64,000 nt of DNA from an uncultured Prevotella sp. (GCA_944320235.1 CALUGQ010000010.1:2040-66039); one strand, 5' to 3'. Positions 32,666 through 54,967 are shown, numbered from the stretch's first letter. Numbers and translations: made by a program. The notes: generated by a model from the sequence alone, not told the origin.

Positions 32666-32780
32666 TCAACGTGAAACTCTGAAAAAAAACAAACGGGTAC
32701 CCATGCCCGCCCGCGGGAAAATGGGAGCAACGCCCCTAACGCTTCAGCACGGGGCAAAACAACAATAAAATAAAACAAAC

Positions 32781-33164: not shown

Positions 33165-33177
33165 ACGCAATTCGCCA

Positions 33178-34962: not shown

Positions 34963-35252
34963 CTGCGGCGAGTCGGTGCTAACACCCGGCGTACAGGGAC
35001 GGCGACTTTAACCCAAAGCTATATTTACAGTACAGCCGTATTGAGTCCATAAACGTCAAAAGACTACTTAGCCTTTTCATGGAAGCTTACGAAATGTACC
35101 CTAACGACATTGATGACATTGCGGAAGTAGTAAACCATTACACCGCAATCATGGAGACAAACAACGAACTCACTGAAAGAGAAAAAATGATTATATATGG
35201 AGCACTCACCATTTCACTCTACAGCCCGCAACTATGGAATAACTTTGAATAG
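34959..35252 (+). pseudogene. Probable gene remnant (3' part of an unknown gene)
   Basis: ATG 34959 overlaps the upstream stop, in-frame TAA 34980, then 89 open codons ending EREKMIIYGALTISLYSPQLWNNFE. Confidence 0.45.
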
Positions 35253-35409
35253 CTTGTTCTGGGATGCGCTCACGCTCGTGTTCATATGGATAGTCTTTGG
35301 CATAGGATACGTTTTGTGGTTATTCACCGCCATCACCATCGTAGAGAACATTTTCCGCATAGCTTGGATGATAAGAAAAAGGAAAAGGCAACTTGAAGAA
35401 CATGAATAA
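35245..35409 (+). CDS. Small membrane protein
   Basis: TTG start overlapping the previous stop; hydrophobic helices followed by RKRKR. Confidence 0.45.
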   Translation: MNSLFWDALTLVFIWIVFGIGYVLWLFTAITIVENIFRIAWMIRKRKRQLEEHE

Positions 35410-36112
35410 CAATGCGATGACATTAAGTTACGAAAGACAAGTCGCCCACATCGCCACGGCATGCGCGTGCGGGGTTATCATGGCATTGACGCCCATGCAG
35501 GGGGCATGGGTGGCAGTCGGTGGGGCGCTGATAATATCTGTCGTTTGCACGGTGTTTGCCATGAGCCTGCGCTCCCGAGGCGCAGCCGAAGCATGGAGCC
35601 CCACCCTTTCTTCCGATGCGGCCATGGCCGGCTGCGCCATGCTCGTGCCGTGCCTTACGCAATCGCACGGGTGGCTGGCACTGCCGCTCATGCTCATCCC
35701 CGCAGCAGATGCGCTGTTGGCCTTGCGCAGCAAGCCAACAGCCGAAGAGCCGCCTGCCAGGCAGAGCCTTGCCCTCCTGGCCTTGGAGGCCGCACTCATT
35801 GCCGTGGCAGTGGCCTTGGCGCTGGCCTACGGCGTTGACGGATGGAACGCGCCCCGCTTGGCTTGCGCAGCCGTCTCCATGCTGATGCTTGCAGTGGCGA
35901 TATGCACCATGGGCGGATGGGGCATGGCGAAAGTGCCGCACAAGGAGAGGCGACTGTCGCTCTGCATCATGCCAATCCCCATTGCCATCTGTGTCTACGG
36001 CTTGGCTTACGGCGATGGCGCGGCGGCCAAAGCCATTTGCCTGTCCACGGCGGCTGCATGCGCCGCCGTGCTGGAGATTGACAAGCACAGGACAAAGCCA
36101 CGACGAACATGA
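35402..36112 (+). CDS. Multi-pass membrane protein
   Basis: About 8 hydrophobic helices; start overlaps the previous stop. Confidence 0.65.
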   Translation: MNNNAMTLSYERQVAHIATACACGVIMALTPMQGAWVAVGGALIISVVCTVFAMSLRSRGAAEAWSPTLSSDAAMAGCAMLVPCLTQSHGWLALPLMLIPAADALLALRSKPTAEEPPARQSLALLALEAALIAVAVALALAYGVDGWNAPRLACAAVSMLMLAVAICTMGGWGMAKVPHKERRLSLCIMPIPIAICVYGLAYGDGAAAKAICLSTAAACAAVLEIDKHRTKPRRT

Positions 36113-36261
36113 AACAATGAATGCACCACTGACCAACCCATAGGGGCAACCGAAAGCAAACTGGCTCTCACCTTCAGCAGGCCACTCATGCCCTGCACGC
36201 AAAAGCATGGAAGCAACGCCCCTAACGCTTCAGCACGGGGCAAAACATAACACGTTATAAC

Positions 36262-36645
36262 ATGAAAAAGACATTGTTTATGGCTGCGCTCGCAGCTACT
36301 TTCTGCGCCACGGCAAGCGCACAAGGAACGTCAATACCCAAGGAAGTCAAAGAGACTTTTTATGGAACGAAAGCCAGCAAAAAACCGAACAACCCATGCA
36401 AGGGCGCGACGACACGCGTTTGCGGAATAAGAATCATCACCCATTCTGACATGGGTGACAACACCACGCGCATAACGAGGCTGACAACCGACTGCGACGG
36501 CGACGTGCTCGAAAACTGGACAAACATAATTCCATTCCCCATTGATTCCATCGCGAAGTCCCCCGGAGCCGGCAAGTCCTTCGACATCAGGCATCGTGGG
36601 AACAACGATGACAATGACAACACAGGTGGCACGCCACGTCCATAA
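36262..36645 (+). CDS. Small secreted Cys-containing protein, copy B
   Basis: Paralog of 32781-33164. Confidence 0.85.
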   Translation: MKKTLFMAALAATFCATASAQGTSIPKEVKETFYGTKASKKPNNPCKGATTRVCGIRIITHSDMGDNTTRITRLTTDCDGDVLENWTNIIPFPIDSIAKSPGAGKSFDIRHRGNNDDNDNTGGTPRP

Positions 36646-36658
36646 ACGCAATTCGCCA

Positions 36659-38449
36659 ATGAAGAGATTATCCATAATATTCTTCTCTTTACTAATGGGC
36701 ATAGTTTCCCGCGCAGAGGACTTCCCCCTCGTGCGGGAAACCATCGCCATGGAGCTGCAGATACGGCAGAAACCCGGCACCGAGCCATTGCTGAAAGACT
36801 ACCTCAGCAGCATAAGCGCGCCCAACGACACGGTGTACGCCATACTCTACGAGCCTACTTTCTGCCCACGCTGCGAAATAGACATAAAGCCATACAGCAA
36901 GATGCTGAGTGAGCTTGCGCCGCAAAGCCCGTTCGTGCTGATTACCGCTTACCCCGACTCGGCGAGGGCCGCGGCCTACAACAAGGAGAAAGGATACGCC
37001 GCCGACGGCTACATATACGACACGGACGAGGCGTTCATGCGCATCTTCAGCTTCAACACAAACGGCCTCTCCGGCCTGTACATCCTGAAGATGTGCAAAT
37101 CCACGGGCGAACTCCTCGTAGGGGCAAACAGCTTCTACACAAGCATGGAATACACAAAAGAGCTTACTGGCTGGACGGAACGGATGGAACAGCACAACTT
37201 CGCGCAGGCCTCCGGCGCTGCTGGCGGCGAACCATGGCAGCTGCCACGCCCGGCGTGCGAGCCGCTCACCGGCCCATTCACCGACCATGGGCTGAAGCTC
37301 GACGGGCAGATGCTGTCTGACGTGTATGACGTACCCAAGTTTGACTGGCCGTACTTCTTCTACAACGACAAGCTGAACAACTGCGTGATGCTCTTCAAGG
37401 AGGACGGCGGCTCACTGCGCTTCTCCGCACGCATAGAGGCCGACAGCACCGAACGCGACCATTTCATAGAGCTGAGCGATGACTGGAAACGGCTCCTCGA
37501 CAAGTCGAGCCTGTGCTACATACCGCTGGCGGCGACGATGACGGACAGCCAACGGATAGGGGTGTCGTACTCACTGCCCCACGTCATGGAAGACACCATA
37601 GCCAAGAACGGCGGCCTGGCTTTCTTCAACGCACCCGCAATCGTCATTCGCGACGCGGGGACGCTGGCCAAGTCGCCGATGTACTGCCCCGACTTCATGC
37701 TCTTCAAGGACACCACCTACTTCTATGCCCACTTCAACTTCTGCGTGTTCAAGGGCGAGGTGATCTACAGTTGCCAGAAAATGACATGGCCGATGATGTA
37801 TGAGCGGTGGGAATACGAGCACAACCCGGTGATGAACCCTTTCTCCGAGAAGTTCTACAGCAGCGGCAACCCGTGGCTGGCGGCGTTCAGCCTCAGGACG
37901 GGCAAGCTGGTGGAGCGCTTCGCCGAGCTTGAGCCGTGCGCCGAGGCCAGCCGCACCGGCTATTGGTTCGTCAACCCGGTGATGTACAGCAACGGCGACG
38001 AACTTCTGTATTCCGACGGGTTCTCAGGCGCTATCCACATCACTCGCGACATCCACAAGGGCGCAGCCGAGAGCTACTCTGCATTTGCCGTGGACACGGC
38101 GGCGTTCCCGCAGCCCGACACGGCCATGTTCTACCGCCAAGAATACACCAAGGCTTACGACCGCTTTTATTACCGCTGCATAACGGCGGCGAGCATGGAC
38201 GCCGGCAAGGTGACCTGCATCGTGAGGTATGCCCGCAACGACATGGCCAACCCTACAGCCGAGGCGAACGACCACACCGTGGTGACCATCGACCGCCGCA
38301 CGGGCCTCGCCACAGAAAGGCTGATACCACGCTACCAGGGAATGCGCCCCATGGGCTACGGACTGCTCACTGCCAACGGGAGGGTAAGCCCATTCGGCTT
38401 CTACCGACGCGCCGACGGCAGCTATGTGGTGCGCGTGTGGGATGCATGA
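36659..38449 (+). CDS. Exported CPRC-motif protein, copy B
   Basis: Paralog of 33178-34962 (LYEPTFCPRCE; shared WEYEHNP, FPQPDTAMFYR); ATG 36659. Confidence 0.8.
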   Translation: MKRLSIIFFSLLMGIVSRAEDFPLVRETIAMELQIRQKPGTEPLLKDYLSSISAPNDTVYAILYEPTFCPRCEIDIKPYSKMLSELAPQSPFVLITAYPDSARAAAYNKEKGYAADGYIYDTDEAFMRIFSFNTNGLSGLYILKMCKSTGELLVGANSFYTSMEYTKELTGWTERMEQHNFAQASGAAGGEPWQLPRPACEPLTGPFTDHGLKLDGQMLSDVYDVPKFDWPYFFYNDKLNNCVMLFKEDGGSLRFSARIEADSTERDHFIELSDDWKRLLDKSSLCYIPLAATMTDSQRIGVSYSLPHVMEDTIAKNGGLAFFNAPAIVIRDAGTLAKSPMYCPDFMLFKDTTYFYAHFNFCVFKGEVIYSCQKMTWPMMYERWEYEHNPVMNPFSEKFYSSGNPWLAAFSLRTGKLVERFAELEPCAEASRTGYWFVNPVMYSNGDELLYSDGFSGAIHITRDIHKGAAESYSAFAVDTAAFPQPDTAMFYRQEYTKAYDRFYYRCITAASMDAGKVTCIVRYARNDMANPTAEANDHTVVTIDRRTGLATERLIPRYQGMRPMGYGLLTANGRVSPFGFYRRADGSYVVRVWDA

Positions 38450-44081: not shown

Positions 44082-44255
44082 TCACAACAAGATGCCCACA
44101 GCCGCAACGATCACGGCTATCCCGACAGCCAAGGCCACCGCGCTCCACACGAACAACATCCGGGGCATGGCGCCCACCACGTGGCGCAGGCCTTCATCGC
44201 GCAGTTCCACGCCGCCGCGCCCCTTTCCTCCGTTAGTGTCAACAGTATCGCTCAT
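44082..44255 (-). CDS. 57-aa truncated HlyD-like membrane-fusion N-terminus
   Basis: Manual translation MSDTVDTNGGKGRGGVELRDEGLRHVVGAMPRMLFVWSAVALAVGIAVIVAAVGILL; ATGA overlap with the exporter stop. Confidence 0.6.
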   Translation of the reverse strand: MSDTVDTNGGKGRGGVELRDEGLRHVVGAMPRMLFVWSAVALAVGIAVIVAAVGILL

Positions 44256-46447
44256 AGTTCCAACTGATTCTTGACCAACCTGTAATAAGCCCCGCGCAAG
44301 GCAGCAAGCTCCTCGTGAGTGCCTTGCTCCACGATGCGCCCACGCTCCATCACCACTATGCGGTCGGCGCCGCGCACGGTGCTCAGCCTGTGGGCTATCA
44401 CGAGCACGGTGCGCCCGCGCAGGAATGCACCCAGCCCCTCAACAATGGCCCGCTCGTTGCTTGCGTCGAGCGAATTGGTGGCCTCGTCCATGAAGATGTA
44501 CTCCGGCTCCTTGTAAATGGCCCGCGCTATGAGTATGCGCTGACGCTGGCCCGCGCTCAGGCCCATGCCGTTGCGCCCTACGCGGGTGTCGTACTTAAGC
44601 GGCAAGCGCTCGGCAAACTCGTCCACGCGCGCCATGCGGGCGGCGCGCAGCAGCCGCCCGGCATCCACCTCGCCGTCGCCCACGGCTATGTTGCGGGCTA
44701 TCGACTCGGAGAACACCACCCCGTCCTGCATCACCACGCCAAGGCGGCTGCGCCACCACTGCGGGTCGTAGTCGGCGAGCAGCCGCCCGCCTACGGTTAT
44801 CGCGCCGGCCTCGGGCGCATAGTAGCCCAGCAGCAGCTTCAGCAGCGTGGTCTTGCCGCTGCCGCTCACGCCGACGATGGCCGTGGTCTTGCCCTCGGCG
44901 ATGTCGAGGCTCACGCCGCTGAGCGTGGGGCTGGGGGCGTTGGGGTCGTAGCGGAACGTGACGCCTTGCAGGCTCAAGGTGCGCCCCTTGGTGGCGAAGG
45001 CCGTGAGCGCGCCCTCGCGCCCCTCGCCCTTGGCCTGGTGCACCTCGCCTATGCGCTCAAGGCTCAGCCTTACGTCCTGCAGCGAATATACGAAGCCGAG
45101 CAGGCTCTCCACCGGGGCCGACAGCTGCCCGATGATGTACTGCACGGCCAGCATCTGCCCGAGCGTCAGCCGCCCGTCGATGACGGCCATGGCGGCCAGC
45201 ACCGTCACCACCACGTTCTTCACGCCGTTGATGAGCACGCCGCCGGCCTCCTCGGCCTGCTGCAGCTTGAGGCCCTTCATGCGCACGCCGTAGAGGGCGG
45301 CCTCGGCCTCCTCCCACTCGCGGCGGCGGCGCAGGCGGCAGTCCTGCAGCTTGGCCTCCTGCATGGTGGTGACGAGCTGCCACGTGGTGTCCTGCGCCTC
45401 GGCGGCCTTGCCGAACCGCTCGCGGTCGAGCACGCGGCGGCGCCCGAGGAAAGCCCTTATCCACAGGCCGTAAAGCAGGCTGAAGGCCATGAACACGCCG
45501 AACACCACTGCATCGTAGGCCAGCAACACGAAGCCGAACACGCAAAACGTGGCGGCGGAGAACAGCACCGTGAGCGCACCGCCGGTGAGAAACTGCTCCA
45601 CGCGGTCGTGGTCGCCCATGCGCTGCATTATGTCGCCGGTGTGCTTGGTGTCGAAGAAAGCCATGGGCAGGGTGAAGAGCTTACAGAGGAAGTCGGAGAC
45701 GATGGCCAGGTTGACCCTCATGCTCACGTGGAGCAGCAGCCAGCGGCGCACGAAGTCGATGGCCGTGGAGCTGAGCGTGAGCATGAGCTGCCCGGCAAGC
45801 ACGAGCCATACGAAGCCTATGTCGCGCTGGGCGATGCCGCGGTCGACTATGGCCTGGGTGAGCAGCGGCAGCAGCAGCTGCAGGGCGCTGCCCACGGCCA
45901 GCCCCGCCGCCACGTGGGCCAGGGCGCGGCGGTGGCGCCCCATGTAGCCCAGCAGGAAGCGCAGCGAGCGCGGCCCGGGGGCGCGCCCGGCTCCTGCGTC
46001 GGGCCTGAAGCCTGCCGACGGCTCCAAGAGCAAGGCTATGCCCTTGTCCTCGCCGCCGGAGCACGCGCTGAGCCAGCACTCCTCCATCTCGCCGCGCCCG
46101 CACACCACCAGCCCCCTGGCGGGGTCGGCAAGGCAGTAGCGCGCCCGGCTGCCGCTGCCCTTTATGCGGTAAAGCACCACGAAGTGCTGCTGCCGCCAAT
46201 GGAGGATGGCGGGCAGCGGCACCTTGCCAAGGGCATCAAGCGAAAGGCGGCCAGCCACCGTGTGAAGCCCATAGGCTTCGGCTGCGCGGCTCAGCCCCAG
46301 CAGCGACGCCCCCTCGGCCGTGGGAGGGCAAAGGGCCTCCACCTCGGCCATGGCGCACCGCCGCCCATAGTGCTCAAGCACCATGCGGAGACAGGCCACG
46401 CCGCACTGCATGGCATCGTGCTGGAGATATAGCGGGAAGCGGTTCAT
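44252..46447 (-). CDS. C39 peptidase-containing ABC transporter (PCAT)
   Basis: QHDAMQCG catalytic Cys, HWRQQHFVV, TMD, GVSGSGKT, LSAGQ, MDEAT. Confidence 0.95.
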   Translation of the reverse strand: MNRFPLYLQHDAMQCGVACLRMVLEHYGRRCAMAEVEALCPPTAEGASLLGLSRAAEAYGLHTVAGRLSLDALGKVPLPAILHWRQQHFVVLYRIKGSGSRARYCLADPARGLVVCGRGEMEECWLSACSGGEDKGIALLLEPSAGFRPDAGAGRAPGPRSLRFLLGYMGRHRRALAHVAAGLAVGSALQLLLPLLTQAIVDRGIAQRDIGFVWLVLAGQLMLTLSSTAIDFVRRWLLLHVSMRVNLAIVSDFLCKLFTLPMAFFDTKHTGDIMQRMGDHDRVEQFLTGGALTVLFSAATFCVFGFVLLAYDAVVFGVFMAFSLLYGLWIRAFLGRRRVLDRERFGKAAEAQDTTWQLVTTMQEAKLQDCRLRRRREWEEAEAALYGVRMKGLKLQQAEEAGGVLINGVKNVVVTVLAAMAVIDGRLTLGQMLAVQYIIGQLSAPVESLLGFVYSLQDVRLSLERIGEVHQAKGEGREGALTAFATKGRTLSLQGVTFRYDPNAPSPTLSGVSLDIAEGKTTAIVGVSGSGKTTLLKLLLGYYAPEAGAITVGGRLLADYDPQWWRSRLGVVMQDGVVFSESIARNIAVGDGEVDAGRLLRAARMARVDEFAERLPLKYDTRVGRNGMGLSAGQRQRILIARAIYKEPEYIFMDEATNSLDASNERAIVEGLGAFLRGRTVLVIAHRLSTVRGADRIVVMERGRIVEQGTHEELAALRGAYYRLVKNQLEL

Positions 46448-46456
46448 GTGATATCA

Positions 46457-46599
46457 GGAGTTAAGGAGTTAGGGAGTCAGGGAGTTAAGGAGTTAAGACG
46501 CATGCAAGAGACCCCGCCACAGCGCGCTGCCCTTTTACCTTTTTACTTTTTTACCTTTTTACTTTTTTACCTTTTTACTTTTTTACCTTTTTACTTTTA
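46457..46599. repeat. Simple sequence repeats: ggagttaa-type 8-mer x5 and cctttttactttttta 16-mer x3.5
   Basis: Read directly at 46457-46496 and 46538-46593. Confidence 0.9.
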
Positions 46600-46601
46600 T
46601 G

Positions 46602-48698
46602 TCATAGTCGCATTATTCCAGACGAGCCTTTCTCCACGTTGAGCTTCTCGCGCTCCACTTTCTTGCGGCCGAAGTCGAAGCTGTAAGACAGGCTGACGTA
46701 AGCCTTCCGCCCGTTGAGAGAGGTGGTGGTGCTGTTGTCAAACCTGTAAACGCCGTGGTCGGCCCAAGTGCGCAAGGCATAGTTGCCATCAAAGAAGAGC
46801 TGGCCGCCCACGGCCACGTGGAGCCCCTTGTGGTGCCAGGCCAGCTCCGCGATGTAGAATTGCGGAATCTCTTGATAGTAGCCGCCCCACTCGAGGCTGC
46901 GCCGCTTGGTGACATACTGCGCCATGATGCTGAAGTTCTTAATGTAGTAGTTGCCTGTAAGGGCGAACAGCCAGCGGCCCGAGTTGCAGGAGTTTAGCCC
47001 GGTGATGCGCTGCCCCCTATACTGCAGCGTGGGCGAGAGCTGCAGCGAGCGCTTGAATAGGAACAGCGAGGCCGACACCCCGGCGAGATAGGTGATGTGC
47101 TTGCCGTCGGAAATGTAAGTGCTCACCAGCGTTCCGCCCTCGTCCATATAGTAAGGCTTCGTGTAGTCGGTGTATATCGTGGAACTGCCATATACCGAGA
47201 TGTTGGCGTTCTTTAGCGAAAGGTTGTACGAGGCGTTCACGAAATGCACCTTGGTGATGTCCAAGTGGGGGTTGCCCCGCTGCACGGTGTACTGGTTTAC
47301 GCGCTGTTCCGTGCTGTTGTAGTTGTACATCTGCGGCACGTTGCTCGCCATGTGCCAATATGCATACAGCGAGCTGCGCCCGTTTATCTTGTAGTTGATG
47401 GTGGCCCCGGGGCGCGGCAGCAGCTTGCTTAAGGTGCCTATGCCCTTCACCCTGTACAAATCCCAGTATAGGCCAAAGCGGGCAGAAAGCGTAAGCCGCT
47501 TGCCAAAGGTGTGCGAATAGCTGGGGTCAAAGAGCACCACGCCGTCGTCAATCCCCTGGTCGGCAGCCATGGTGCCTGCGTATGTGGTGCGGTTGCTGCT
47601 GAATCTCCCAAACAGCATCGCCCCTATGGCATTGCCGTGCTTCAGGTCGGCGTTATATACGAGCATGGCGTCGGCACGGTATTGCTTTTCCTTCGAGTCA
47701 GTGACCACGGTGGGCAGCGAGCCTTCGGTGTAAGTGCGGCTGTAGGTGTTGTCGGCATACCAGCCGCTGGCCGAAGCCCGAAGCCGATGACCCTTGGCCA
47801 CCTCCGTCTCAAGGAAGAAGTTCATCGACGGGGTGGCGTTGCGACTGTGATTGTCGGTCACAGCTTCCGACGAGGGATAGGCCTGCGGCGTGTAGCTCAC
47901 CATGGTGCTTTGGTGGCTCTCGGGCATCTCGCTCCAGTTAAAGCCGAGGTCGAGAATGGCGGTGGTCTTTTCCGTGCGGTACTTGGTGCGCAGCAGGCCG
48001 TAGTGGTTTTGCGTCTTTGTCAACAGGCCGAGGGCAGTCTCCTTCTTGGTGAACGGCGTGGCAAAGCCCACGTATTCAGTGCCGCTGGTGCCGGGCGTAT
48101 CCTCCTTTGTGAAGCCGGTGCCTGCGTAGAGGGTGAAGTTGAATTTGTTCACGTCGAGGCTCGCCTGCAGTGAATAGTCGCCGTAGTCGAGCCATGGGTA
48201 GGCAAGGGTGCTTGTGCGCATGTCTACGTAGCCGCCGCGGTCGTACTTGCGCGTGATGAAGTTGAGCACGGTCTGCTCGCTAGGAAAGGCGGGCGACGGG
48301 CGGTCGTAGTACTCCACCCGCACTATGTCCTTGGGCCTCAGCCTGTCGGCCTCCGTGACGTCGGCCTTGCGGTTGTCTATGTATATGGAGGGAGCTGTGC
48401 CGTCGGCGTTCTTCACGGTCTTGCCTATGTGGTCCACCAGCAGCTTTGGTATCATCATGCGCGCCAGCAAGCTTATGCCCGAGGCCGAGGCGTCAGCCTG
48501 CCGCTTGGTGGGCATGTAGTTGGTGTGGTCGTCCTTTTGTATGGCCATGCGCCCCTCTACGGTGACGCCCCCGAGGTCTACTTGGCGAAATATGCTGTCC
48601 TGCCCCGCCGCCTGCGCCGTGCTGTCTGCCGCGGCGGCACGGGCCTCAACGCCGAAGAACGCCAGCAATGCAACAATTGTTAAGCAAAAACCCTTCAT
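46602..48698 (-). CDS. Outer-membrane beta-barrel protein (plug plus barrel), paralog 2
   Basis: Signal peptide, LRPKDIVRVEYYDRP plug motif, C-terminal SLSYSFDFGRK; start MKGFCL at 48698. Confidence 0.8.
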   Translation of the reverse strand: MKGFCLTIVALLAFFGVEARAAAADSTAQAAGQDSIFRQVDLGGVTVEGRMAIQKDDHTNYMPTKRQADASASGISLLARMMIPKLLVDHIGKTVKNADGTAPSIYIDNRKADVTEADRLRPKDIVRVEYYDRPSPAFPSEQTVLNFITRKYDRGGYVDMRTSTLAYPWLDYGDYSLQASLDVNKFNFTLYAGTGFTKEDTPGTSGTEYVGFATPFTKKETALGLLTKTQNHYGLLRTKYRTEKTTAILDLGFNWSEMPESHQSTMVSYTPQAYPSSEAVTDNHSRNATPSMNFFLETEVAKGHRLRASASGWYADNTYSRTYTEGSLPTVVTDSKEKQYRADAMLVYNADLKHGNAIGAMLFGRFSSNRTTYAGTMAADQGIDDGVVLFDPSYSHTFGKRLTLSARFGLYWDLYRVKGIGTLSKLLPRPGATINYKINGRSSLYAYWHMASNVPQMYNYNSTEQRVNQYTVQRGNPHLDITKVHFVNASYNLSLKNANISVYGSSTIYTDYTKPYYMDEGGTLVSTYISDGKHITYLAGVSASLFLFKRSLQLSPTLQYRGQRITGLNSCNSGRWLFALTGNYYIKNFSIMAQYVTKRRSLEWGGYYQEIPQFYIAELAWHHKGLHVAVGGQLFFDGNYALRTWADHGVYRFDNSTTTSLNGRKAYVSLSYSFDFGRKKVEREKLNVEKGSSGIMRL

Positions 48699-48723
48699 AG
48701 GCAACAATTTTATGTTATATATG

Positions 48724-48731
48724 CAAAGATA
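48724..48731 (-). promoter_or_regulatory. -7 promoter element TATCTTTG upstream of barrel 2
   Basis: Reverse complement of caaagata matches TAnnTTTG. Confidence 0.5.
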
Positions 48732-48926
48732 GTGAAAATCACGCAAACAAGAAAAAAAAAAAGACATTTCGCATATAATCATGTCAAAAAATTCTCGATA
48801 TGCAAGAAAATGCCTCACTTTGCTTGCTTTGACTTATAATACATATACAGCATATCAAACAATGCATCTTCGTTGTCTTTATATATGCTGCACAGTTCGT
48901 AATATTCTGTTAAATATGAATCTCTC

Positions 48927-48959
48927 AAAAATGAAGAAGCACTTAAAGCACTTCTTCAT
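48927..48959 (-). terminator. Intrinsic terminator after the precursor gene
   Basis: Minus-strand RNA AUGAAGAAGUGC-UUUAA-GUGCUUCUUCAU-UUUU. Confidence 0.7.
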
Positions 48960-48986
48960 TTCTGAAATAGCATTTGGTTCACAATG

Positions 48987-49160
48987 TCAGCACTTTGCGT
49001 TTGTACCTACACAGCCGCCACAAACACTGTTGCAACCACACATATTGTGAGTCTCTTGGCATCCGCTATTAGTTCCCAAGCCACCAAGGACTGCGAGGGA
49101 TTCCCCATCGCTCAGACGCTGAATGATGCTCAGCTCGTTAAGTCTTTTCTTAATTTCCAT
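48987..49160 (-). CDS. RiPP precursor peptide, double-glycine leader and six-Cys core
   Basis: MEIKKRLNELSIIQRLSDGESLAVLGG|LGTNSGCQETHNMCGCNSVCGGCVGTNAKC*; A-rich translation initiation region, 27 nt after the upstream stop. Confidence 0.9.
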   Translation of the reverse strand: MEIKKRLNELSIIQRLSDGESLAVLGGLGTNSGCQETHNMCGCNSVCGGCVGTNAKC

Positions 49161-49187
49161 AATTGTTGTTTTTTAAAAGATTAAACA

Positions 49188-51257
49188 TTAATCAGTGCCG
49201 CTAGTAAGGAGGGCACTGTTTATCTTACGGTCAATTTCTTCGTTTACCCTCTCGGTCTTGCGGCCAAAATCAAACGTGTATCGCAGCGAGATGGACACAA
49301 AGCGGCTTTGGCTCCTGTCGAATGTGCTTGTGTCTGCCCAATATGCATCCGTATCGGTGACACGATGGACACGCCGCTTAGCAAACGGGCAGCCCAAATA
49401 CAACTGCGCAAAAAATCCCTTGTGGCTGTAGGAGCAACTGAAGTCGTAATCAATAGGCTCTGCCACGATGGCTGTATTCTGGAAATCAATGTATTTCCGT
49501 CGAGAGGTGACATTGGCCGCCAGCATAAAGTCGCCAAGATAGTACAATACACCTGCAAAGCCCACATAGTGGGTGTGAGACATTGACGTGGAACCACGCA
49601 ACGACGTATACGACACGGCACCATTGCATGTCACTTGCAACTTGTCAGTAAGGCGGTAAGACACGCTCCCCCAAAACGAAACTTCATTCATCTCAATGTC
49701 ATTGGCATACGTTTTCAGCACCCGCGAGCCATCTTCCACAAGCCCATAGCTGTTGAGCACGAGGTTGTGGCCATAGTAATATTGCGGGTTAGCCATGACG
49801 CTGAGCTTGCCGAAACTCTGGCTGTAATATATATTAGAGTTAACGTTGCTCACACGGCGCAGGCTGCCCGTTCCCCTCATGGTCATGTAGGGTGATATTT
49901 CCACCTGCGCATTGTTAAACACGTTCATACCGTAAGTGGGGTTGGAATAGAAAGCCTGCCACGACAGCAGGCCATCATGCAGGCGCAACTGCATGGCCAC
50001 ATTGAGCCGCGGGGTAAGCTGGCTGAACTTGCGGCTGCCGTGCAATCGCAACTGCATCCAGTCAAGGCCCGTGCGCAGGCGCAGTGAGAGATTGCGCCCG
50101 AATTTCCGCGTATAAGATGCGAGAGCCAGCGACTCGCCTTTCCACAAGTGCTGCCACAAAGGGTTGTCGCCTGTGTAAGAAGAAATCCAAATGTCGTGAT
50201 AGTGTATCGCCATAGCCGTGAAAGCGTTCTTGCCCTTGGCGTATGAGTACGTCAAATCGGCCATGAAGCTGTAAGCATCCTCCTCGGCATGGGTGGCTGA
50301 TGCAAAAGCAGCCTCAGTGTAGTTGCGGTCGTAGCTGTTGCGCGAATATGAGCCATTTACTGTATAATTGAGCGTGTGGCATTCCGCCAAGCTCACTTGG
50401 CCGGAGAAGTCTATCTTAGGCGACAAGCCCTGCCTGGAAGTCGCCGACGCGAACTCAGAAAGCGAGCTGCCATCGCGCAGCCACCCTTCCTCAGCATCCG
50501 CCGGCGTGCTCTTGTTGTAAAGCGTCAGCTTGCCCACCCAATATGACTTATCCCTTTTGTTCTGCACCCTAAGCTGCACATACTCATCGTTATTGCGAAG
50601 CGACTGCGCGGCGTTGCTCTCACGCAACACATTGCCGGCAGGCAACTTGTAAAGCTCGGCGCCTGCGGCCTCGCTGCCACCAACGTTCTTGTAAGACGCG
50701 CCTGCAAACAATGAGTAAGTCACGCTGCCGCTGCTCATTGTGGCTGCCGCGGAGTAATAGCCCGAGCTGAAACCAACAATCTGCTCTGCTGATGCGGAAA
50801 CATAACCACCATAACGATACTGGCGCATCACGAAGTTTATGGCGAACTTGTCGTTGGCATACTTGCCGTCGGGCATATCCATGTACTCTATGCGCAATAT
50901 GTCCTGTGGGCGCATCATGCTCACCTCGTTGATGTCGCAAGGCTGCCCGTTGACATATATGGTGGCCTCAACGTTCATCAAGCTAACCTTTCCGGCCTTT
51001 TCGTCTACCTGCAAGCCGGGCAGCATAAGGTTGCGCAGCACTCCAAAGCCATTGGCGGCATGCTTGCGCTGGTCTGCATTGGGGAAAATCCACATGCTGC
51101 CGTCTTGCTTCCGCTGCATATTTGAGCCGGTGACAGTGACCTCGCGCACTGCAAGGTGCGCGTCAACGGAATCACGAGTCACGCTATCGGCTCTCTCTGC
51201 CAACAGACCAAGGGTGCTGACAAAGCATAGCAACAAAACGGAAGCAATTCTCAGCAT
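49188..51257 (-). CDS. Outer-membrane beta-barrel protein (plug plus barrel), paralog 1
   Basis: Signal peptide, MRPQDILRIEYMDMP plug motif, C-terminal ISLRYTFDFGRK. Confidence 0.8.
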   Translation of the reverse strand: MLRIASVLLLCFVSTLGLLAERADSVTRDSVDAHLAVREVTVTGSNMQRKQDGSMWIFPNADQRKHAANGFGVLRNLMLPGLQVDEKAGKVSLMNVEATIYVNGQPCDINEVSMMRPQDILRIEYMDMPDGKYANDKFAINFVMRQYRYGGYVSASAEQIVGFSSGYYSAAATMSSGSVTYSLFAGASYKNVGGSEAAGAELYKLPAGNVLRESNAAQSLRNNDEYVQLRVQNKRDKSYWVGKLTLYNKSTPADAEEGWLRDGSSLSEFASATSRQGLSPKIDFSGQVSLAECHTLNYTVNGSYSRNSYDRNYTEAAFASATHAEEDAYSFMADLTYSYAKGKNAFTAMAIHYHDIWISSYTGDNPLWQHLWKGESLALASYTRKFGRNLSLRLRTGLDWMQLRLHGSRKFSQLTPRLNVAMQLRLHDGLLSWQAFYSNPTYGMNVFNNAQVEISPYMTMRGTGSLRRVSNVNSNIYYSQSFGKLSVMANPQYYYGHNLVLNSYGLVEDGSRVLKTYANDIEMNEVSFWGSVSYRLTDKLQVTCNGAVSYTSLRGSTSMSHTHYVGFAGVLYYLGDFMLAANVTSRRKYIDFQNTAIVAEPIDYDFSCSYSHKGFFAQLYLGCPFAKRRVHRVTDTDAYWADTSTFDRSQSRFVSISLRYTFDFGRKTERVNEEIDRKINSALLTSGTD

Positions 51258-51322
51258 ATATTACTTGAATTTAAACTAAATTCATCCCGCTGGAAGCCAA
51301 CAGCAAAGGCAAGCTACGGGAA

Positions 51323-52642
51323 TCAGCCATTCAACAATTTTCTCCTGCAAGCCTCACTTATCACAAATTCATCAACAGTAGACTGGGAGTTTTCGACCAC
51401 ACAGGGCATAGGGTTGCCTGTGTCGCGAGCCTCCTTGCACTTTGCGATGCATGGCCCCATGCATATAGGCAACAGTTTACAAGCCAGGCACCGTTCGTTG
51501 TCAAACGTTGGGTGGGAAAACAAACTTGAGCGAAGCTTGTCACTCCATTCAATGTGGCCATCCTGCCCCAACCGCCCCAAGACCTTGTCATCGGCATAAT
51601 CCTGCGCCGTACACTTAAATACCCTCCCGTCGTAGTTAATGACATAATGATGCAGCCTGTCTGCATAACACCTGTGGAACATCCTTGGAGTAAACGCCCA
51701 AAAGTCCACACAAAAGCCATTGTCGGCAAACGCCTTGCGCACCATGCGCAAGCGTTCCAAATCTTCCTCATTGCACTTTATCTGCCACACCTTTTGGAAA
51801 TCGACCGTCATGTGACGCTTGGCGTTCTCCGTAAAAAGGGGTATTATATCCTCTATGCCGCGCAATGTTCTCTTGTCAAAGTTTATCCTCAATATTATAT
51901 GAGCATCCGGGATTATCTCCGGCAGCATATTGATGTTGCCAACTATTGCCTTGAACGTGCCGCCCTTGTCTGCGTTTTTCTTGATGACATTGTGATGGCG
52001 CTCATTGCCGTCGAGCGGTATCTGGAAGCTCGTGAAATGCAGCTCGGCCATTCTTTGCATCATCTTTTCGGTCATGAAAACAGAGTTGGTAGTCACGTGC
52101 TGAGTGAATCCTATGCCATGCTCCCGCACAAGTTCGTTGGCAACGGAGGATATCGGGGCAACAATTTCATCGAAATACATCAATGGCTCACCACCAAACC
52201 AGTCCAAATGCAAGGCCGTTATGCGCTTCTTTTCCACCAAGTATGCCATGTGCGATTTCACCGCCTTGACAATTTCTGGCGACATGCAGCCTTCATGCTG
52301 TGCCTTGGCGTATTCCGTGGAGCAATACCAGCACCGCAGGTTGCAGTCGAGCGTTGGGTTTATGGTTACGTGATAGCGTTGGTCTTCATAAACCACCTTG
52401 TTGTTCTGAAGCCTTATGTAATCAAGCTCATTGAAATCGCCATCGACTATGAAACCACTTTTCTTGAAGTTATCATAAAGAGACGGATAATCATGCCCAA
52501 AGCCTTCAAGGTTGTCTGCATAAGCCGACAAAATGGAGTATTCGTCTGCCGTTAGGCACACGAGAGAGTTCGTCAGTGTGTTATACACTAACTTATACGC
52601 CCCATGCGGCACAACGATATTATAGTAACTTAATTTATCCAT
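51323..52642 (-). CDS. Radical SAM/SPASM peptide maturase
   Basis: CNLRCWYC, WFGGEPL, SPASM Cys HRCYAD..FKCTA..CLACKLLPICMGPC. Confidence 0.92.
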   Translation of the reverse strand: MDKLSYYNIVVPHGAYKLVYNTLTNSLVCLTADEYSILSAYADNLEGFGHDYPSLYDNFKKSGFIVDGDFNELDYIRLQNNKVVYEDQRYHVTINPTLDCNLRCWYCSTEYAKAQHEGCMSPEIVKAVKSHMAYLVEKKRITALHLDWFGGEPLMYFDEIVAPISSVANELVREHGIGFTQHVTTNSVFMTEKMMQRMAELHFTSFQIPLDGNERHHNVIKKNADKGGTFKAIVGNINMLPEIIPDAHIILRINFDKRTLRGIEDIIPLFTENAKRHMTVDFQKVWQIKCNEEDLERLRMVRKAFADNGFCVDFWAFTPRMFHRCYADRLHHYVINYDGRVFKCTAQDYADDKVLGRLGQDGHIEWSDKLRSSLFSHPTFDNERCLACKLLPICMGPCIAKCKEARDTGNPMPCVVENSQSTVDEFVISEACRRKLLNG

Positions 52643-52687
52643 AATGACATTTATATTTTACCCGTATCTTAATTAAACAGCCTTACC

Positions 52688-53065
52688 CTACCTGCCTATC
52701 TCAACAGTATCGGCCAGGCGCGGCACTCCCTCGGTCTCCACAACCACGGTGCACTGAGCGGCATCTGTTCCGGCAAAGGTATATCCTATCACGGTACTAC
52801 GGTCGGCCGTCTCCTTGTCGTCAACCACGAGCTTGCCGTCCTTGATTATCTTCACACGAATGTCATCTGACTGACGGTTGAAAGCTATGGAAATGGTGCG
52901 GCTGCCATCTTCGTGGAACACCTCCACCGGGTTTGTGCCGACATTCCAATTGGGCTTGAAACCTATATCCTTTGACTTTGTAACCTCATCGCTTGCCTGC
53001 GTTGGCGAACAAAGGAACTGCATAAATAGCAATGCAGCAACTATAAAAAACCTGCTTCTTTTCAT
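52688..53065 (-). CDS. Small secreted DUF3244-like protein
   Basis: Signal peptide, beta-rich ~100-aa body; divergent from a TPR regulator. Confidence 0.6.
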   Translation of the reverse strand: MKRSRFFIVAALLFMQFLCSPTQASDEVTKSKDIGFKPNWNVGTNPVEVFHEDGSRTISIAFNRQSDDIRVKIIKDGKLVVDDKETADRSTVIGYTFAGTDAAQCTVVVETEGVPRLADTVEIGR

Positions 53066-53090
53066 AATAAATTCAATTGATTCGTGCTAG

Positions 53091-53121
53091 CAAAATTATA
53101 ATTTAAAATCAATGCGGCAAA
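53091..53121 (-). promoter_or_regulatory. Promoter of the RiPP operon
   Basis: Minus strand TTTG (53121-53118), 19-nt spacer, TAATTTTG (53098-53091). Confidence 0.7.
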
Positions 53122-53249
53122 ATTTTCTGATGAAAAATTAATTTTGCCTGTGACGTTTCAGAAAACTTGAAAATCCCCATAAACAAAGGGATTTAAACGA
53201 TTTTCAGCCCCAAAACACGCTTAAAACTTTCACACTGAGCGTCATCGAA

Positions 53250-53281
53250 TTTGGCCATTTCGGATGAAATTCATATTTTTG
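53250..53281 (+). promoter_or_regulatory. Promoter of the divergent TPR regulator
   Basis: TTTG 53250-53253, 20-nt spacer, TATTTTTG 53274-53281. Confidence 0.65.
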
Positions 53282-53308
53282 CAGCGGTTAATCTAAGTCA
53301 TTACTGAT

Positions 53309-54967
53309 ATGAACAAGAAAGCAAAAGGCATAAACTGGTGGCAGAAAAAATACATCATAATGACATTTTCAGCCATTGCCATCGTATGCATCGCATTGTG
53401 TTTATACCGCAACAATGAGACAACTGAGGCTAACATTACCCAAATTGACACCCTACTGGCACATGGCAAGGCTGACTCTGCATACCAAGCCTTACCAAAG
53501 GTGATAAAAGGGGGTATTCAAAGTGAAAGCGAGCAGGCTTATTACAATTTACTTAAGGCTGAGATAATGTTCAGAAAAAGCATTGCCCCGCCAGAATACA
53601 CTGGCATAAACCAAAGCATCAGTTTTTATGGCAAGGCAAAAGATTACCGTAAACTCGCAAGGGCATACTACGTAAAAGGGAGAATTGCAGACCTGAACGG
53701 AAATGTAAAAGAATGCGTAAAGTGCATGGCAATGGCGGAAAGTATGGCCTCCAAGACTAACGATAACCTTCTTAAATGTAGAATATACATAACCCTCACT
53801 GCAACATGCTTAAATGGAGGAGAAAGTCAGCTCGCGCTTGAAAATGGGAGGAAAGCAATATACTTCGGTGAGAAATCGGGAAACAAAGAAATGCTATTAT
53901 ACTGTTATAGCAACTTATCTTCAATACACTCAAGACTCAACAACCCAGACAGCTCCTTATTCTACGCAAACAAGAGCCTCCCCTTGATTAGGTACATATC
54001 AGACGGCAGCAAAATATATGCATTAACCAACATCGGGGCTGCCTACGAATTCCGCGACCCTGCCAAGGCGAAGGCTTACGCAAGGAAAGCCCTGGAGATA
54101 AAGCCTTATGCCAACGCATACCACCTGCTCGGTGCCATTGCATACAGGGAGGGGCGCACCGAAGATGGCAAGGCCCTGCTCTGGCGTGGCATAGAGGTGA
54201 GCACCGAACTAATGCGCACCATAAGCATGACGGAAGACCTGGCCGAGTGCGAGCAAAAGGAGGGGAACAGCGGCGAAGCGGCACGGCTACTGAAGATGGC
54301 CACGGCCATGCGCGACAGCCTGGCGCGCAAGAACACGGCAGACAGCATAGCCGGGGTGATGGCGGCGCACGAGCTGCTGCAAACCGAACAGGCCGCAAAA
54401 GCAGAGCGCTGTCTCTTTAATATAATTATATCAGCATTGGCCGCAGCTGCCGTGATAGGACTGTTGGCTGTTGTGGTTTACTTAAGCCTGTCGAAAAAAA
54501 GCCTGCGGCAGGCTAAGGAGAAGGCCGAGGAAAGCGAACGGGAGCTGAGTGCACTAAAGGAGAAGCTCGCAGCACTAAGGGCCACGGGCAAGAAAGAAGC
54601 CGACGCACATCAAAAGGAATTGCGCAAGATGGAGGCTCAGCACAAAAAAGCCGTGGAAGCTCTGAACAAGGCCACGGAGGAGACCATGGCCAACGGCCAC
54701 CGCCTGTACGGGCAGGTGGCGCGCGGAGAGAGCATAGCACAGTGGAAGAAAAGGGAGATGGCTTGGTTTGCCGAATACTACATGGCTATAAACAAGGAGT
54801 TCGGACACATGATAGAAAACGGCTACACGGGGCTTTCATACAGGCAGACTACGTTTCTCATACTTGAACACTTGGGCAAGACGCAAGAGGAAACCATGGA
54901 GATGATGAACATTAGCTACGACAACTACCGCAAGATGCGCTCGGTGATAAACACGAAGAAAATTTAG
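53309..54967 (+). CDS. TPR-repeat membrane sensor/regulator with C-terminal HTH-like domain
   Basis: N-terminal TM anchor, TPR helices, second TM, coiled coil, LSYRQTTFLILEHLGKTQEETMEMMNIS tail. Confidence 0.75.
   Translation: MNKKAKGINWWQKKYIIMTFSAIAIVCIALCLYRNNETTEANITQIDTLLAHGKADSAYQALPKVIKGGIQSESEQAYYNLLKAEIMFRKSIAPPEYTGINQSISFYGKAKDYRKLARAYYVKGRIADLNGNVKECVKCMAMAESMASKTNDNLLKCRIYITLTATCLNGGESQLALENGRKAIYFGEKSGNKEMLLYCYSNLSSIHSRLNNPDSSLFYANKSLPLIRYISDGSKIYALTNIGAAYEFRDPAKAKAYARKALEIKPYANAYHLLGAIAYREGRTEDGKALLWRGIEVSTELMRTISMTEDLAECEQKEGNSGEAARLLKMATAMRDSLARKNTADSIAGVMAAHELLQTEQAAKAERCLFNIIISALAAAAVIGLLAVVVYLSLSKKSLRQAKEKAEESERELSALKEKLAALRATGKKEADAHQKELRKMEAQHKKAVEALNKATEETMANGHRLYGQVARGESIAQWKKREMAWFAEYYMAINKEFGHMIENGYTGLSYRQTTFLILEHLGKTQEETMEMMNISYDNYRKMRSVINTKKI

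What the first reader, a model, noticed from the sequence alone, without database searches (positions are those of the whole stretch)
48987..49160. Hidden 57-aa double-glycine precursor with a six-Cys core of repeated N-x-x-C motifs
Seen by manual translation (below the ORF-track cutoff): leader MEIKKRLNELSIIQRLSDGESLAVLGG, core LGTNSGCQETHNMCGCNSVCGGCVGTNAKC. The 30-aa core has NSGC, NSVC and NAKC, is bracketed by a repeated (L/V)GTNxxC, and also has NMCGC and CGGC. Established: the streptococcal rSAM NxxcB links Cys-S to Asn-C-beta in an NxxC motif. Inference: up to 3-4 Cys-Asn thioether rings (a ranthipeptide-like scaffold), with leftover Cys for disulfides or metal binding.
Basis: partly seen in the sequence, partly recalled or inferred. 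Interest (0 to 1): 0.95.

Follow-up and report, generated by a model that had tools for sequence, protein, structure and literature searches.

The report
Cysteine-asparagine peptide precursor, radical-SAM cluster
This 57-codon gene is very probably a real precursor of a secreted peptide that the neighbouring radical-SAM enzyme modifies; in its small, unstudied family from gut Bacteroidales, cysteines sit three residues after an asparagine far more often than chance, so a string of small sulfur-bridged rings is a good but still untested guess.

Summary
The ORF exists exactly as described, but on the minus strand (48987-49160). It encodes a 27-aa double-glycine leader and a 30-aa core with six Cys. 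I take it as a real gene. Its leader matches a family of about 46 representative precursors. In eleven of the twelve related loci whose DNA I checked, the precursor sits directly upstream of an orthologous rSAM/SPASM enzyme (53-64% identity). A conserved 20-bp hairpin follows its stop codon. An intact C39-ABC exporter lies in the cluster.

The NxxC motif is more than chance. In the ten cores of the window's clade, Asn lies at -3 of 19 of 46 Cys (4.4 expected, p<5e-5), and only at that offset. The result holds without the window and its nearest relative (13 vs 3.2). The three NxxC Asn survive in a homologue whose core differs at 15 of 30 positions.

In the larger sister clade (C-L-A-G-C-G-C cores, e.g. 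Segatella copri) Asn is not enriched, but Gln or His takes the same -3 position. Core type follows the enzyme tree.

The enzyme folds like CteB (RRE, rSAM, SPASM with seven conserved Cys) but reaches no curated equivalog cutoff. It could not be compared with NxxcB. The thioether chemistry, its carbon and expression are all untested.

Verdict: new variant of a known kind, interest about 0.55.

The parts
48987..49160 (-). Precursor gene, 57 aa plus stop. Leader = 49080-49160 (27 aa, ends in GG). Core = 48990-49079 (30 aa, 6 Cys, 3 NxxC plus HNMC).
   Evidence: Translation. The leader matches a family profile of 46 representatives. G26 and G27 are invariant. No Pfam or NCBIfam model hits it even at E<=10.
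48923..48967 (-). Hairpin with a 20-bp stem followed by a T-run, 20 nt after the precursor stop codon. Likely terminator or attenuator closing the unit small protein - rSAM - barrel 1 - precursor.
   Evidence: Terminator scan. RNA fold -26.5 kcal/mol, z=-5.0, 0 of 200 shuffles as stable. Nearly identical in the homologous locus L012.
51323..52642 (-). Radical SAM/SPASM peptide maturase, 439 aa. N-terminal RRE-like beta3-alpha3 unit, C99xxxC103xxC106, and seven invariant SPASM Cys (324, 343, 384, 387, 393, 397, 413).
   Evidence: PF04055 and TIGR04085 above their cutoffs; every equivalog model below cutoff. Invariant Cys from a 66-sequence alignment. AF2 model pLDDT 93.8. Best PDB fold match CteB 5WHY/5WGG, TM 0.70.
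49188..51257 (-). Outer-membrane beta-barrel protein 1 (689 aa), with a signal peptide.
   Evidence: Paralogue of barrel 2: 25% identity over 674 aa, E=2e-45. The equivalent gene follows the rSAM in relatives and hits PF14905.
46602..48818 (-). Outer-membrane beta-barrel protein 2. The ORF is 738 aa; the likely true start is Met41 at 48698, just before the signal peptide.
   Evidence: PF14905 OMP_b-brl_3, E=2.4e-9. The start is inferred from the sequence.
44252..46447 (-). Peptidase-containing ABC transporter (PCAT), 731 aa. C39 domain with Gln9, Cys15 and His88 motifs intact.
   Evidence: PF03412 4e-27, PF00664, PF00005. TIGR03796 431 bits, below its cutoff. Catalytic motifs read from the sequence.
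52688..53065 (-). Small secreted protein (125 aa, signal peptide) directly upstream of the rSAM. Function unknown.
   Evidence: A 110-159-aa gene holds the same position in all relatives. No family hit.
53309..54967 (+). Divergently transcribed TPR-repeat protein (552 aa) with hydrophobic segments. Candidate regulator.
   Evidence: TPR_12 7e-12. A TPR protein of 491-623 aa lies at the same place in relatives. The regulatory role is inference.

Best explanation
The 57-aa ORF on the minus strand is the precursor of a ribosomally made, enzyme-modified peptide.

Proposed steps:
1. The 27-aa leader (K-x-L-N/D-E-x-x-I-I/L-x-R-L-S-D-G-E ... G-G) is bound by the RRE-like N-terminal domain of the rSAM/SPASM enzyme at 51323-52642.
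2. That enzyme makes intramolecular thioether rings. A core Cys thiolate binds the open iron site of an auxiliary Fe-S cluster. 5'-deoxyadenosyl radical abstracts a hydrogen from the residue three positions upstream, and the C-S bond closes a 4-residue ring. This is the same i-3 to i topology as streptococcal NxxcA (Asn20-Cys23).
3. In this peptide the expected sites are N4-C7, N17-C20 and N27-C30, with H11-C14 as a possible fourth.
4. C16 and C23 would be left for a disulfide, or as free thiols.
5. The PCAT at 44252-46447 removes the leader after Gly27 and exports the 30-aa product. The two paralogous outer-membrane barrels flanking the gene probably carry it across, or back across, the outer membrane.

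Shown here: the gene, its family, the motif statistics, the co-variation of enzyme and core type, the enzyme fold, and the intact exporter motifs.

Inferred: that any bond is made, that it is a thioether, which carbon is used, the number of rings, the fate of the remaining Cys, the roles of the barrels, and the biological activity.

The confidence given (0.5) is for the whole statement. That it is a genuine rSAM-cluster RiPP precursor I put at about 0.9. That the modification is a thioether to the -3 residue I put at about 0.5.
For: 1. Gene reality.
- The leader profile finds 46 representative precursors, 12 at E<=1e-10.
- In eleven related loci with fetched DNA (L005, L009, L010, L011, L013, L036, L038, L041, L059, L061, L063) the precursor lies directly upstream of an rSAM 53-64% identical to the window's.
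- L012 (rSAM 88% identical) has the same arrangement as the window.
- A conserved hairpin follows the stop codon.

2. Motif.
- Asn at -3 of Cys: 19 of 46 against 4.4 expected, p<5e-5, and only at offset -3.
- 13 against 3.2 without the window and P0125.
- [N/Q/H] at -3: 25 of 46 against 7.2.

3. Selection.
- Window and P0125 cores differ at 15 of 30 positions, yet keep 5 Cys and all 3 NxxC Asn. N12, which is not at -3, becomes D, and H11 becomes Q.
- The leader is 25/27 identical.

4. Sister-clade control.
- Asn at -3: 4 against 7.3 expected, so not enriched.
- Gln 31 against 11.7 and His 13 against 3.6, at offset -3 only.
- 33 of 36 cores have [QNH]xxC.
- The window's CGC-NSVC-GGC lines up with CGC-..QRAC-DVC.

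5. Enzyme and core co-vary. LAGC-type enzymes form a clade (97/92). NxxC-type enzymes lie outside it, within a family supported at 100/99.

6. Enzyme.
- CxxxCxxC, a SPASM domain, and exactly seven invariant SPASM Cys.
- PMC10352776 notes that the thioether formers CteB, Tte1186 and QhpD also have seven.
- Best sequence and fold match in the PDB is CteB.
- Among characterised NCBIfam families, PapB scores highest (95.7 bits), above DynA (68.9), SCIFF (65.8) and anSME (59.5).

7. Precedent. NxxcB joins Cys-S to Asn C-beta across NxxC and also tolerates Gln, Asp or Ala at the acceptor position (PMC9389541, PMC8326336).

8. No other tailoring enzyme is present in the cluster.
Against: - No experimental or expression data.
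- The enzyme is only distantly related to any characterised thioether synthase: 17% identity to CteB, and all equivalog cutoffs are missed by a wide margin.
- NxxcB itself could not be compared.
- The clade is small, about seven independent lineages. Two members, L054 and P0136, have none or one NxxC.
- Gly occupies one of the two x positions in 12 of 19 NxxC. Asn-Gly turns before Cys in a compact disulfide-rich peptide could give the same pattern without any cross-link.
- His as an acceptor has no precedent that I know of.
- In the window and in L012 the precursor is separated from the rSAM by a 2-kb barrel gene, unlike in all other relatives.
Confidence: 0.5

Rival explanations
1. It is a real rSAM-modified precursor, but the chemistry or connectivity differs from Cys-S to C-beta of the -3 residue. 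Possibilities are an alpha-carbon thioether (sactionine) at Asn as made by QmpB, links from Cys to other residues, or a modification that is not a thioether. In that case [N/Q/H]-x-x-C would be an enzyme recognition or turn-forming motif.
For: - QmpB links Asn C-alpha to Cys-S (PMC11851443), so Asn beside Cys does not fix the carbon.
- The enzyme is equally distant from several SPASM families of different chemistry. Fold hits after CteB include TigE, anSME and SuiB.
- NCBIfam hits include DynA (68.9 bits) and RumMC (44.1 bits).
- Gly is frequent inside NxxC.
Against: - The enrichment is strictly at offset -3 in both clades, even though the residue changes between N and Q/H. This is what a fixed ring size predicts.
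- Cys is the only residue type conserved throughout the cores.
- The best structural and sequence match among solved structures is a thioether synthase.
Confidence: 0.3
2. The peptide is exported after leader removal as an unmodified, disulfide-bonded or metal-binding Cys-rich peptide (a class II bacteriocin or a metallophore). The rSAM would then act on something else or be dispensable. The plug-barrel proteins would import the metal-loaded peptide.
For: - Six Cys, one His and several Asn in 30 residues.
- Two TonB-receptor-like barrels flank the gene.
- In the window the gene is not adjacent to the rSAM.
Against: - In every other relative the precursor abuts the rSAM.
- Core type tracks the enzyme phylogeny.
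- Cys number is odd or variable among close relatives (6, 5 and 4).
- Gln and Asn are poor metal ligands, yet they are the conserved -3 residues.
Confidence: 0.08
3. It is a chance ORF, or antisense noise, and is not translated.
For: - It is only 57 codons.
- A 66-codon ORF overlaps it on the plus strand.
- No expression data could be obtained.
Against: - The leader is conserved across 46 representatives with invariant GG.
- Synteny with rSAM and PCAT is conserved.
- The leader is 93% identical to the homologue while the core is 50% identical with Cys and Asn retained.
- The hairpin is on the same strand.
Confidence: 0.02

Closest known systems
NxxcA/NxxcB, the NxxC subfamily of streptococcal RaS-RiPPs (Caruso et al. 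2019, as summarised in PMC9389541 and PMC8326336)
   Same: - An N-x-x-C motif in the core.
- An rSAM/SPASM enzyme as the only tailoring enzyme.
- The proposed ring joins Cys to the residue three positions upstream.
- NxxcB tolerates Gln at the acceptor, which matches the Gln seen at -3 in the sister clade here.
   Different: - NxxcA has a single ring (Asn20-Cys23). This peptide has three or four candidate sites.
- The host is a Gram-negative Bacteroidales bacterium, not Streptococcus.
- There is a double-glycine leader with a PCAT and two outer-membrane barrels instead of an shp/rgg quorum-sensing operon.
- Relatedness of the enzyme to NxxcB could not be tested, and no curated equivalog is reached.
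CteB/CteA and other SCIFF ranthipeptide systems; PapB/freyrasin
   Same: - RRE, rSAM and SPASM architecture.
- CteB is the best match in the PDB by sequence (E=3e-12) and by fold (TM 0.70).
- Seven conserved SPASM Cys, as reported for CteB.
- Freyrasin shows that one enzyme can install six small rings at a repeated Cys/acceptor motif.
   Different: - The acceptor lies C-terminal to Cys in those systems (CxxxD; Cys32-Thr37). Here it would be N-terminal.
- Only 17% identity to CteB.
- 95.7 bits to the PapB model against a cutoff of 340.
- Those systems are from Firmicutes and have no outer-membrane components.
Bacteroidales rSAM + GG-leader + PCAT clusters surveyed bioinformatically (Fernandez-Cantos et al. 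2023, PMC10352776); Haft's GG-Bacteroidales set (TIGR04148/TIGR04149)
   Same: The same general design: rSAM maturase, GG-motif precursor, PCAT, often an OMP and a TPR protein, and no membrane-fusion protein.
   Different: - TIGR04148 scores 50 bits against a cutoff of 300.
- The precursor hits no curated model, TIGR04149 and TIGR01847 included.
- The survey describes no NxxC or [Q/H]xxC rule, and no product has been characterised.
Computationally defined Cys-rich peptide maturases: Clo7bot (TIGR04334), TIGR04463, CefB 'Cys-every-fifth' (NF038107)
   Same: These are the best-scoring NCBIfam families (about 150 bits over the full length). All pair an rSAM/SPASM enzyme with a Cys-rich precursor.
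   Different: The scores are a quarter of the equivalog cutoffs (525-600 bits). The precursors have a different periodicity. To my knowledge the chemistry of those families is also uncharacterised.

Membership tests
Double-glycine-leader peptides processed by a C39 PCAT | Gly-Gly (or GA/GS) at the end of a 15-30-aa leader, at a conserved position | tested here: met
   G26 and G27 are invariant in both family alignments.
Double-glycine-leader peptides processed by a C39 PCAT | Hydrophobic residues at -4, -7, -12 and -15 and an acidic residue near -8, relative to the cleavage site | tested here: met
   Read from the sequence: V-4, L-6 (S at -7), E-8, L-12, I-15. The -7 position is shifted by one.
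Double-glycine-leader peptides processed by a C39 PCAT | A peptidase-C39 ABC transporter with its catalytic residues, in the cluster | tested here: met
   PF03412 4e-27 at residues 4-125. Q9, C15 and H88 motifs are present in the sequence.
Double-glycine-leader peptides processed by a C39 PCAT | A hit to a curated leader model (TIGR01847 or TIGR04149) | tested here: not met
   No NCBIfam or Pfam hit even at E<=10.
Double-glycine-leader peptides processed by a C39 PCAT | Cleavage after GG demonstrated | not testable with these tools
   Needs an in vitro C39 assay or mass spectrometry of the secreted product.
Ranthipeptides / NxxC RaS-RiPPs | An rSAM enzyme with CxxxCxxC and a SPASM domain carrying auxiliary Fe-S clusters | tested here: met
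   C99, C103 and C106. TIGR04085 43.1 bits against a cutoff of 27. Seven invariant SPASM Cys.
Ranthipeptides / NxxC RaS-RiPPs | A leader-recognition (RRE) domain on or beside the enzyme | tested here: met
   The AF2 model has three strands and three helices at residues 7-61. Full-length fold alignment to CteB, which has an N-terminal RRE. Structural inference only; Pfam gave no PqqD hit.
Ranthipeptides / NxxC RaS-RiPPs | Enzyme orthologous to a characterised ranthisynthase (NxxcB, PapB, CteB, QhpD) | tested here: not met
   PapB 95.7 bits against 340; SCIFF maturase 65.8 against 425; QhpD 49.8 against 453.
Ranthipeptides / NxxC RaS-RiPPs | A conserved Cys/acceptor motif in the precursor family | tested here: met
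   Asn at -3 of Cys: 19 of 46 against 4.4 expected. The sister clade has Gln or His at -3 instead.
Ranthipeptides / NxxC RaS-RiPPs | shp/rgg quorum-sensing genes next to the cluster (this defines the streptococcal RaS-RiPP network) | tested here: not met
   The neighbour is a TPR protein. No Rgg-like or SHP-like gene is present.
Ranthipeptides / NxxC RaS-RiPPs | A non-alpha-carbon thioether in the product | not testable with these tools
   Needs MS/MS and NMR.
Haft Cys-rich maturase families (Clo7bot, TIGR04463, CefB) and GG-Bacteroidales TIGR04148 | A score above the curated equivalog cutoff | tested here: not met
   154.9 against 600; 152.6 against 525; 149.4 against 600; 50 against 300.

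The most novel reading that the evidence does not exclude
A family of Bacteroidales rSAM/SPASM enzymes follows one positional rule: it links each Cys to the residue three positions upstream, and that residue has diversified between clades (Asn here; Gln or His in the Segatella copri-type clade).

The window peptide would then be the first multi-ring 'poly-NxxC' ranthipeptide, and the first from a Gram-negative gut bacterium. The sister clade would contain Cys-Gln or Cys-His cross-links not yet described for rSAM enzymes.

The paired plug-barrel proteins would be a dedicated outer-membrane route for such peptides.
Probability: 0.3. Interest if true: 0.75.

Novelty: new variant of a known kind. 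Interest (0 to 1): 0.55.

Why it matters
Gut Bacteroidales are abundant, yet I found no characterised modified peptide of this design from them in the papers I searched. Their rSAM/GG-leader/PCAT clusters are known only from genome mining (PMC10352776).

This analysis turns one such cluster into a specific prediction that is cheap to test: which residues are linked (i-3 to i), how many rings form (three or four), and which Asn or His changes should remove them. It also supplies a natural comparison set, because enzymes 53-57% identical work on cores that carry Gln or His at the same position.

If the prediction holds, it extends the one-ring streptococcal NxxC chemistry to multi-ring scaffolds in a different phylum. 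It would also give a substrate code useful for peptide stapling. If it fails, the strict -3 enrichment still marks a recognition motif of an uncharacterised enzyme family that occurs in Segatella copri, Paraprevotella and Muribaculaceae.

Tried and rejected
- Plus-strand reading of the given coordinates: not the peptide.
- Pfam and NCBIfam on the precursor, also at E<=10: nothing.
- Paralogues of the precursor in its own genome: none.
- Metagenome scan with the leader pattern: 13 true loci, nearly all from one lineage (METKKK...), plus 3 false positives in an unrelated methyltransferase gene. It added little.
- Word-indexed search with the clade profile: only 13 proteins, so the clade is small.
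- Direct comparison with NxxcB: no sequence was reachable with these tools, and no NCBIfam model for it appeared among the 25 families listed.
- Literature: no paper characterises this family. I searched for NxxcB, ranthipeptide with Bacteroidetes, Prevotella or copri with RiPP, and SPASM with TonB.
- Idea rejected: the (L/V)GTNxxC 'bracket' as a duplicated module. It is not conserved in P0125, and the two copies use a different codon for each shared Gly, Thr and Asn.
- Idea rejected: Asn specificity across the whole enzyme family. The sister clade has no Asn enrichment.
- GC content steps from 41-55% (48.4-53.8 kb) to 65-70% in the PCAT gene. I did not read this as horizontal transfer, because the relatives also seem to have GC-rich PCAT genes.

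Full report
**1. Observation**

The coordinates are right, but the gene is on the minus strand. The plus-strand translation of 48987-49160 is unrelated. The minus strand gives MEIKKRLNELSIIQRLSDGESLAVLGG LGTNSGCQETHNMCGCNSVCGGCVGTNAKC followed by a stop.

An A/T-rich stretch precedes the ATG. Twenty nucleotides after the stop lies a hairpin with a 20-bp stem and a T-run (48923-48967). It folds at -26.5 kcal/mol, with z=-5.0 against shuffles.

**2. Context**

Gene order on the minus strand:
- a 125-aa secreted protein (52688-53065);
- an rSAM/SPASM enzyme (51323-52642);
- a 689-aa outer-membrane barrel (49188-51257);
- the precursor, then the hairpin;
- a second barrel (46602-48818, PF14905);
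- a C39-peptidase ABC transporter (44252-46447).

A TPR protein (53309-54967) is transcribed divergently. The two barrels are paralogues (25% identity, E=2e-45). The C39 domain keeps its Gln, Cys and His motifs. No other tailoring enzyme is present.

**3. Is it a real gene?**

The precursor has close homologues: P0123 (95% identical), P0125 (76%) and P0124 (78%, with an aberrant tail). The rSAM has hundreds of homologues in Bacteroidales.

I fetched DNA around rSAM homologues from genomes and assemblies. Where the rSAM is 53-64% identical, a small ORF with the same type of leader lies directly upstream of it.

A profile built from 11 such peptides, searched against 1.8 billion representative proteins, returned 46 hits, 12 of them at E<=1e-10. 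Three of these hits were looked up, and each again lies directly upstream of an orthologous rSAM.

G26 and G27 are invariant.

In the locus with the 88%-identical rSAM (L012, an uncultured Prevotella MAG), the gene order, the A-rich start region and the hairpin are all conserved. Between the window and that locus the leader is 25/27 identical. The core differs at 15 of 30 positions.

I regard the gene as real.

No curated model covers the precursor. Three ENA assemblies left the identical homologue uncalled.

**4. Is NxxC more than chance?**

The cores fall into two types.

*The window's type.* Ten distinct cores come from about seven lineages. Asn stands three residues before 19 of 46 Cys, against 4.4 expected from within-core shuffles (0 of 20,000 shuffles). 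No offset from -6 to +6 other than -3 shows any excess. Leaving out the window and P0125 still gives 13 against 3.2 (0 of 20,000). For the window core alone, p=0.014.

Between the window and P0125, the five shared Cys and the three NxxC Asn are all retained. N12, the one Asn not at -3, becomes Asp. H11, which is at -3 of C14, becomes Gln.

*The larger type.* These cores have the form C-[LIV]-A-G-C-G-C ... A-C-x-x-C. There are 36 representatives, including Segatella copri, Paraprevotella and Muribaculaceae. They serve as a control. Asn at -3 is not enriched (4 against 7.3). Gln (31 against 11.7) and His (13 against 3.6) are enriched, again only at -3, and 33 of 36 cores contain [QNH]xxC.

The window's CGC-NSVC-GGC lines up with the sister clade's CGC-..-QRAC-DVC. 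The conserved feature of the whole family is therefore [N/Q/H]-x-x-C.

With this generalised motif, the window's clade has 25 of 46 Cys against 7.2 expected. The window peptide has four sites: NSGC, HNMC, NSVC and NAKC.

**5. Enzyme**

A maximum-likelihood tree puts all these rSAMs in one family (support 100/99). The enzymes that go with LAGC-type cores form a supported clade (97/92). The enzymes that go with NxxC-type cores lie outside it. The one 'N-type' peptide that lacks typical NxxC (P0161) goes with the LAGC clade. Core type therefore follows enzyme phylogeny.

The enzyme has C99xxxC103xxC106 and a SPASM domain with seven invariant Cys, including Cx2Cx5Cx3C. The AF2 model is confident (pLDDT 93.8). 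It shows an N-terminal beta3-alpha3 unit of the RRE type.

The best PDB matches are:
- by sequence, CteB at E=3e-12;
- by fold, CteB at TM 0.70 over the full length, followed by TigE, anSME and SuiB.

In NCBIfam the best hits are the uncharacterised Cys-rich-peptide maturases Clo7bot, TIGR04463 and CefB, at about 150 bits against cutoffs of 525-600. Among characterised families PapB scores highest (95.7 bits). Nothing reaches an equivalog cutoff.

**6. Mechanism proposed**

Established knowledge:
- NxxcB joins Cys-S to Asn C-beta across NxxC, giving a single ring, Asn20-Cys23.
- It is thought to bind the Cys thiolate on an auxiliary cluster.
- It accepts Gln, Asp or Ala at the acceptor position (PMC9389541, PMC8326336).
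- QmpB links Asn C-alpha to Cys-S (PMC11851443).
- CteB, Tte1186 and QhpD have seven SPASM Cys (PMC10352776).

By analogy, I propose that the window's enzyme installs 4-residue thioether rings at N4-C7, N17-C20 and N27-C30, and possibly at H11-C14. The PCAT then cleaves after Gly27 and exports the product.

Every chemical step here is inference. Which carbon is used, how many rings form, and what happens to C16 and C23 are all open.

The main rival (0.3) keeps the rSAM modification but changes the connectivity or the chemistry, with [N/Q/H]xxC as a recognition or turn motif. Gly sits inside 12 of 19 NxxC, which fits a turn.

A disulfide-bonded or metal-binding unmodified peptide (0.08) is disfavoured by the tight coupling of precursor to rSAM. 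A chance ORF (0.02) is disfavoured by the leader conservation and synteny.

**7. Comparison and novelty**

The general design is known from genome mining of Bacteroidales: rSAM, GG leader, PCAT, an OMP, a TPR protein, and no membrane-fusion protein (PMC10352776). No product has been characterised. I found no paper on this family.

The motif works like the streptococcal NxxC system, but this is not a demonstrated member of it:
- orthology is untested;
- the shp/rgg context is absent;
- the leader and the export system differ.

I class it as a new variant of a known kind.

Earlier notes from this scan report other Bacteroidales rSAM precursors with Asn and Cys at other fixed spacings. The window's own genome holds a second such locus with Asn at -4 of five successive Cys (L003). 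These are leads, not evidence, but they suggest a wider theme. They also make this single instance less exceptional.

**8. Limits**

- No NxxcB sequence to compare.
- The NxxC clade is small.
- The shuffle tests treat the cores as independent, although some share ancestry. I reduced this by using representatives at 50% identity and by leaving out the window lineage.

Noticed in passing
L003 (own genome, contig C2, about 117-121 kb); precursor at L003:2689-2946: There is a second, unrelated rSAM peptide locus in the same genome. Its 85-aa precursor ends in five heptad repeats (GNSGSC GTNSGDC SGNSGGC GENSYDC KGNKSDC), so Asn lies at -4 of five successive Cys. The layout is the same: HTH regulator tail, small secreted protein, rSAM (20% identical to the window's; best NCBIfam hit TIGR04463 at 151.6 bits, below cutoff), precursor, outer-membrane barrel.
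   Followed up: partly
window 48987-52688; L012; compare L036, L038, L041, L059, L061, L063: In the window and in its 88%-identical relative, the precursor sits between the two barrel genes, 2.1 kb downstream of the rSAM. In every other relative it lies directly upstream of the rSAM. In the window only 45 bp separate the small secreted protein gene from the rSAM, so the gene has moved.
   Followed up: partly
L005:5766-5942 (Segatella copri), L009, L010, L011, L013; P0126-P0168: The sister precursor family is widespread. Its core is C-[LIV]-A-G-C-G-C-x(2-4)-[Q/H]-x-A-C-x-x-C-x-A. It occurs in Segatella copri, Paraprevotella and Muribaculaceae, and in MAGs labelled Bacillota or Lachnospiraceae (possibly mis-binned). 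It has no Pfam or NCBIfam model.
   Followed up: partly
window 44200-53800: GC content changes sharply inside the cluster. The PCAT gene is 65-70% GC and barrel 2 is 58-60%. The precursor, barrel 1, the rSAM, the small protein and the start of the TPR gene are 41-55%.
   Followed up: no
window 44082-44255 (-); L038:14994-15197; L063:9332-9499: A 57-67-aa ORF overlaps or abuts the PCAT stop codon in the window and in two relatives.
   Followed up: no
P0124 (71 aa, from a 3.7-kb assembly contig): This variant of the window precursor has a normal leader and the start of the core (..NNFCGCNGVCGG). It then runs into an unrelated 25-aa tail, so it is probably a frameshifted or decaying copy.
   Followed up: no
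L054:5001-5183 and P0172/P0173: Within the METKKK lineage from human gut, some alleles have lost the C-terminal NxxC part of the core (VIGVYFVQWCPVADNPASWHYIAAMPIGCTGMQ, with two Cys and no NxxC). The N-terminal YFVQWCP part is kept. That part may carry its own function or its own modification.
   Followed up: no
window 32726-38449: The ORF listing shows a large exported protein (36542-38449) upstream of the cluster region. I did not examine it.
   Followed up: no
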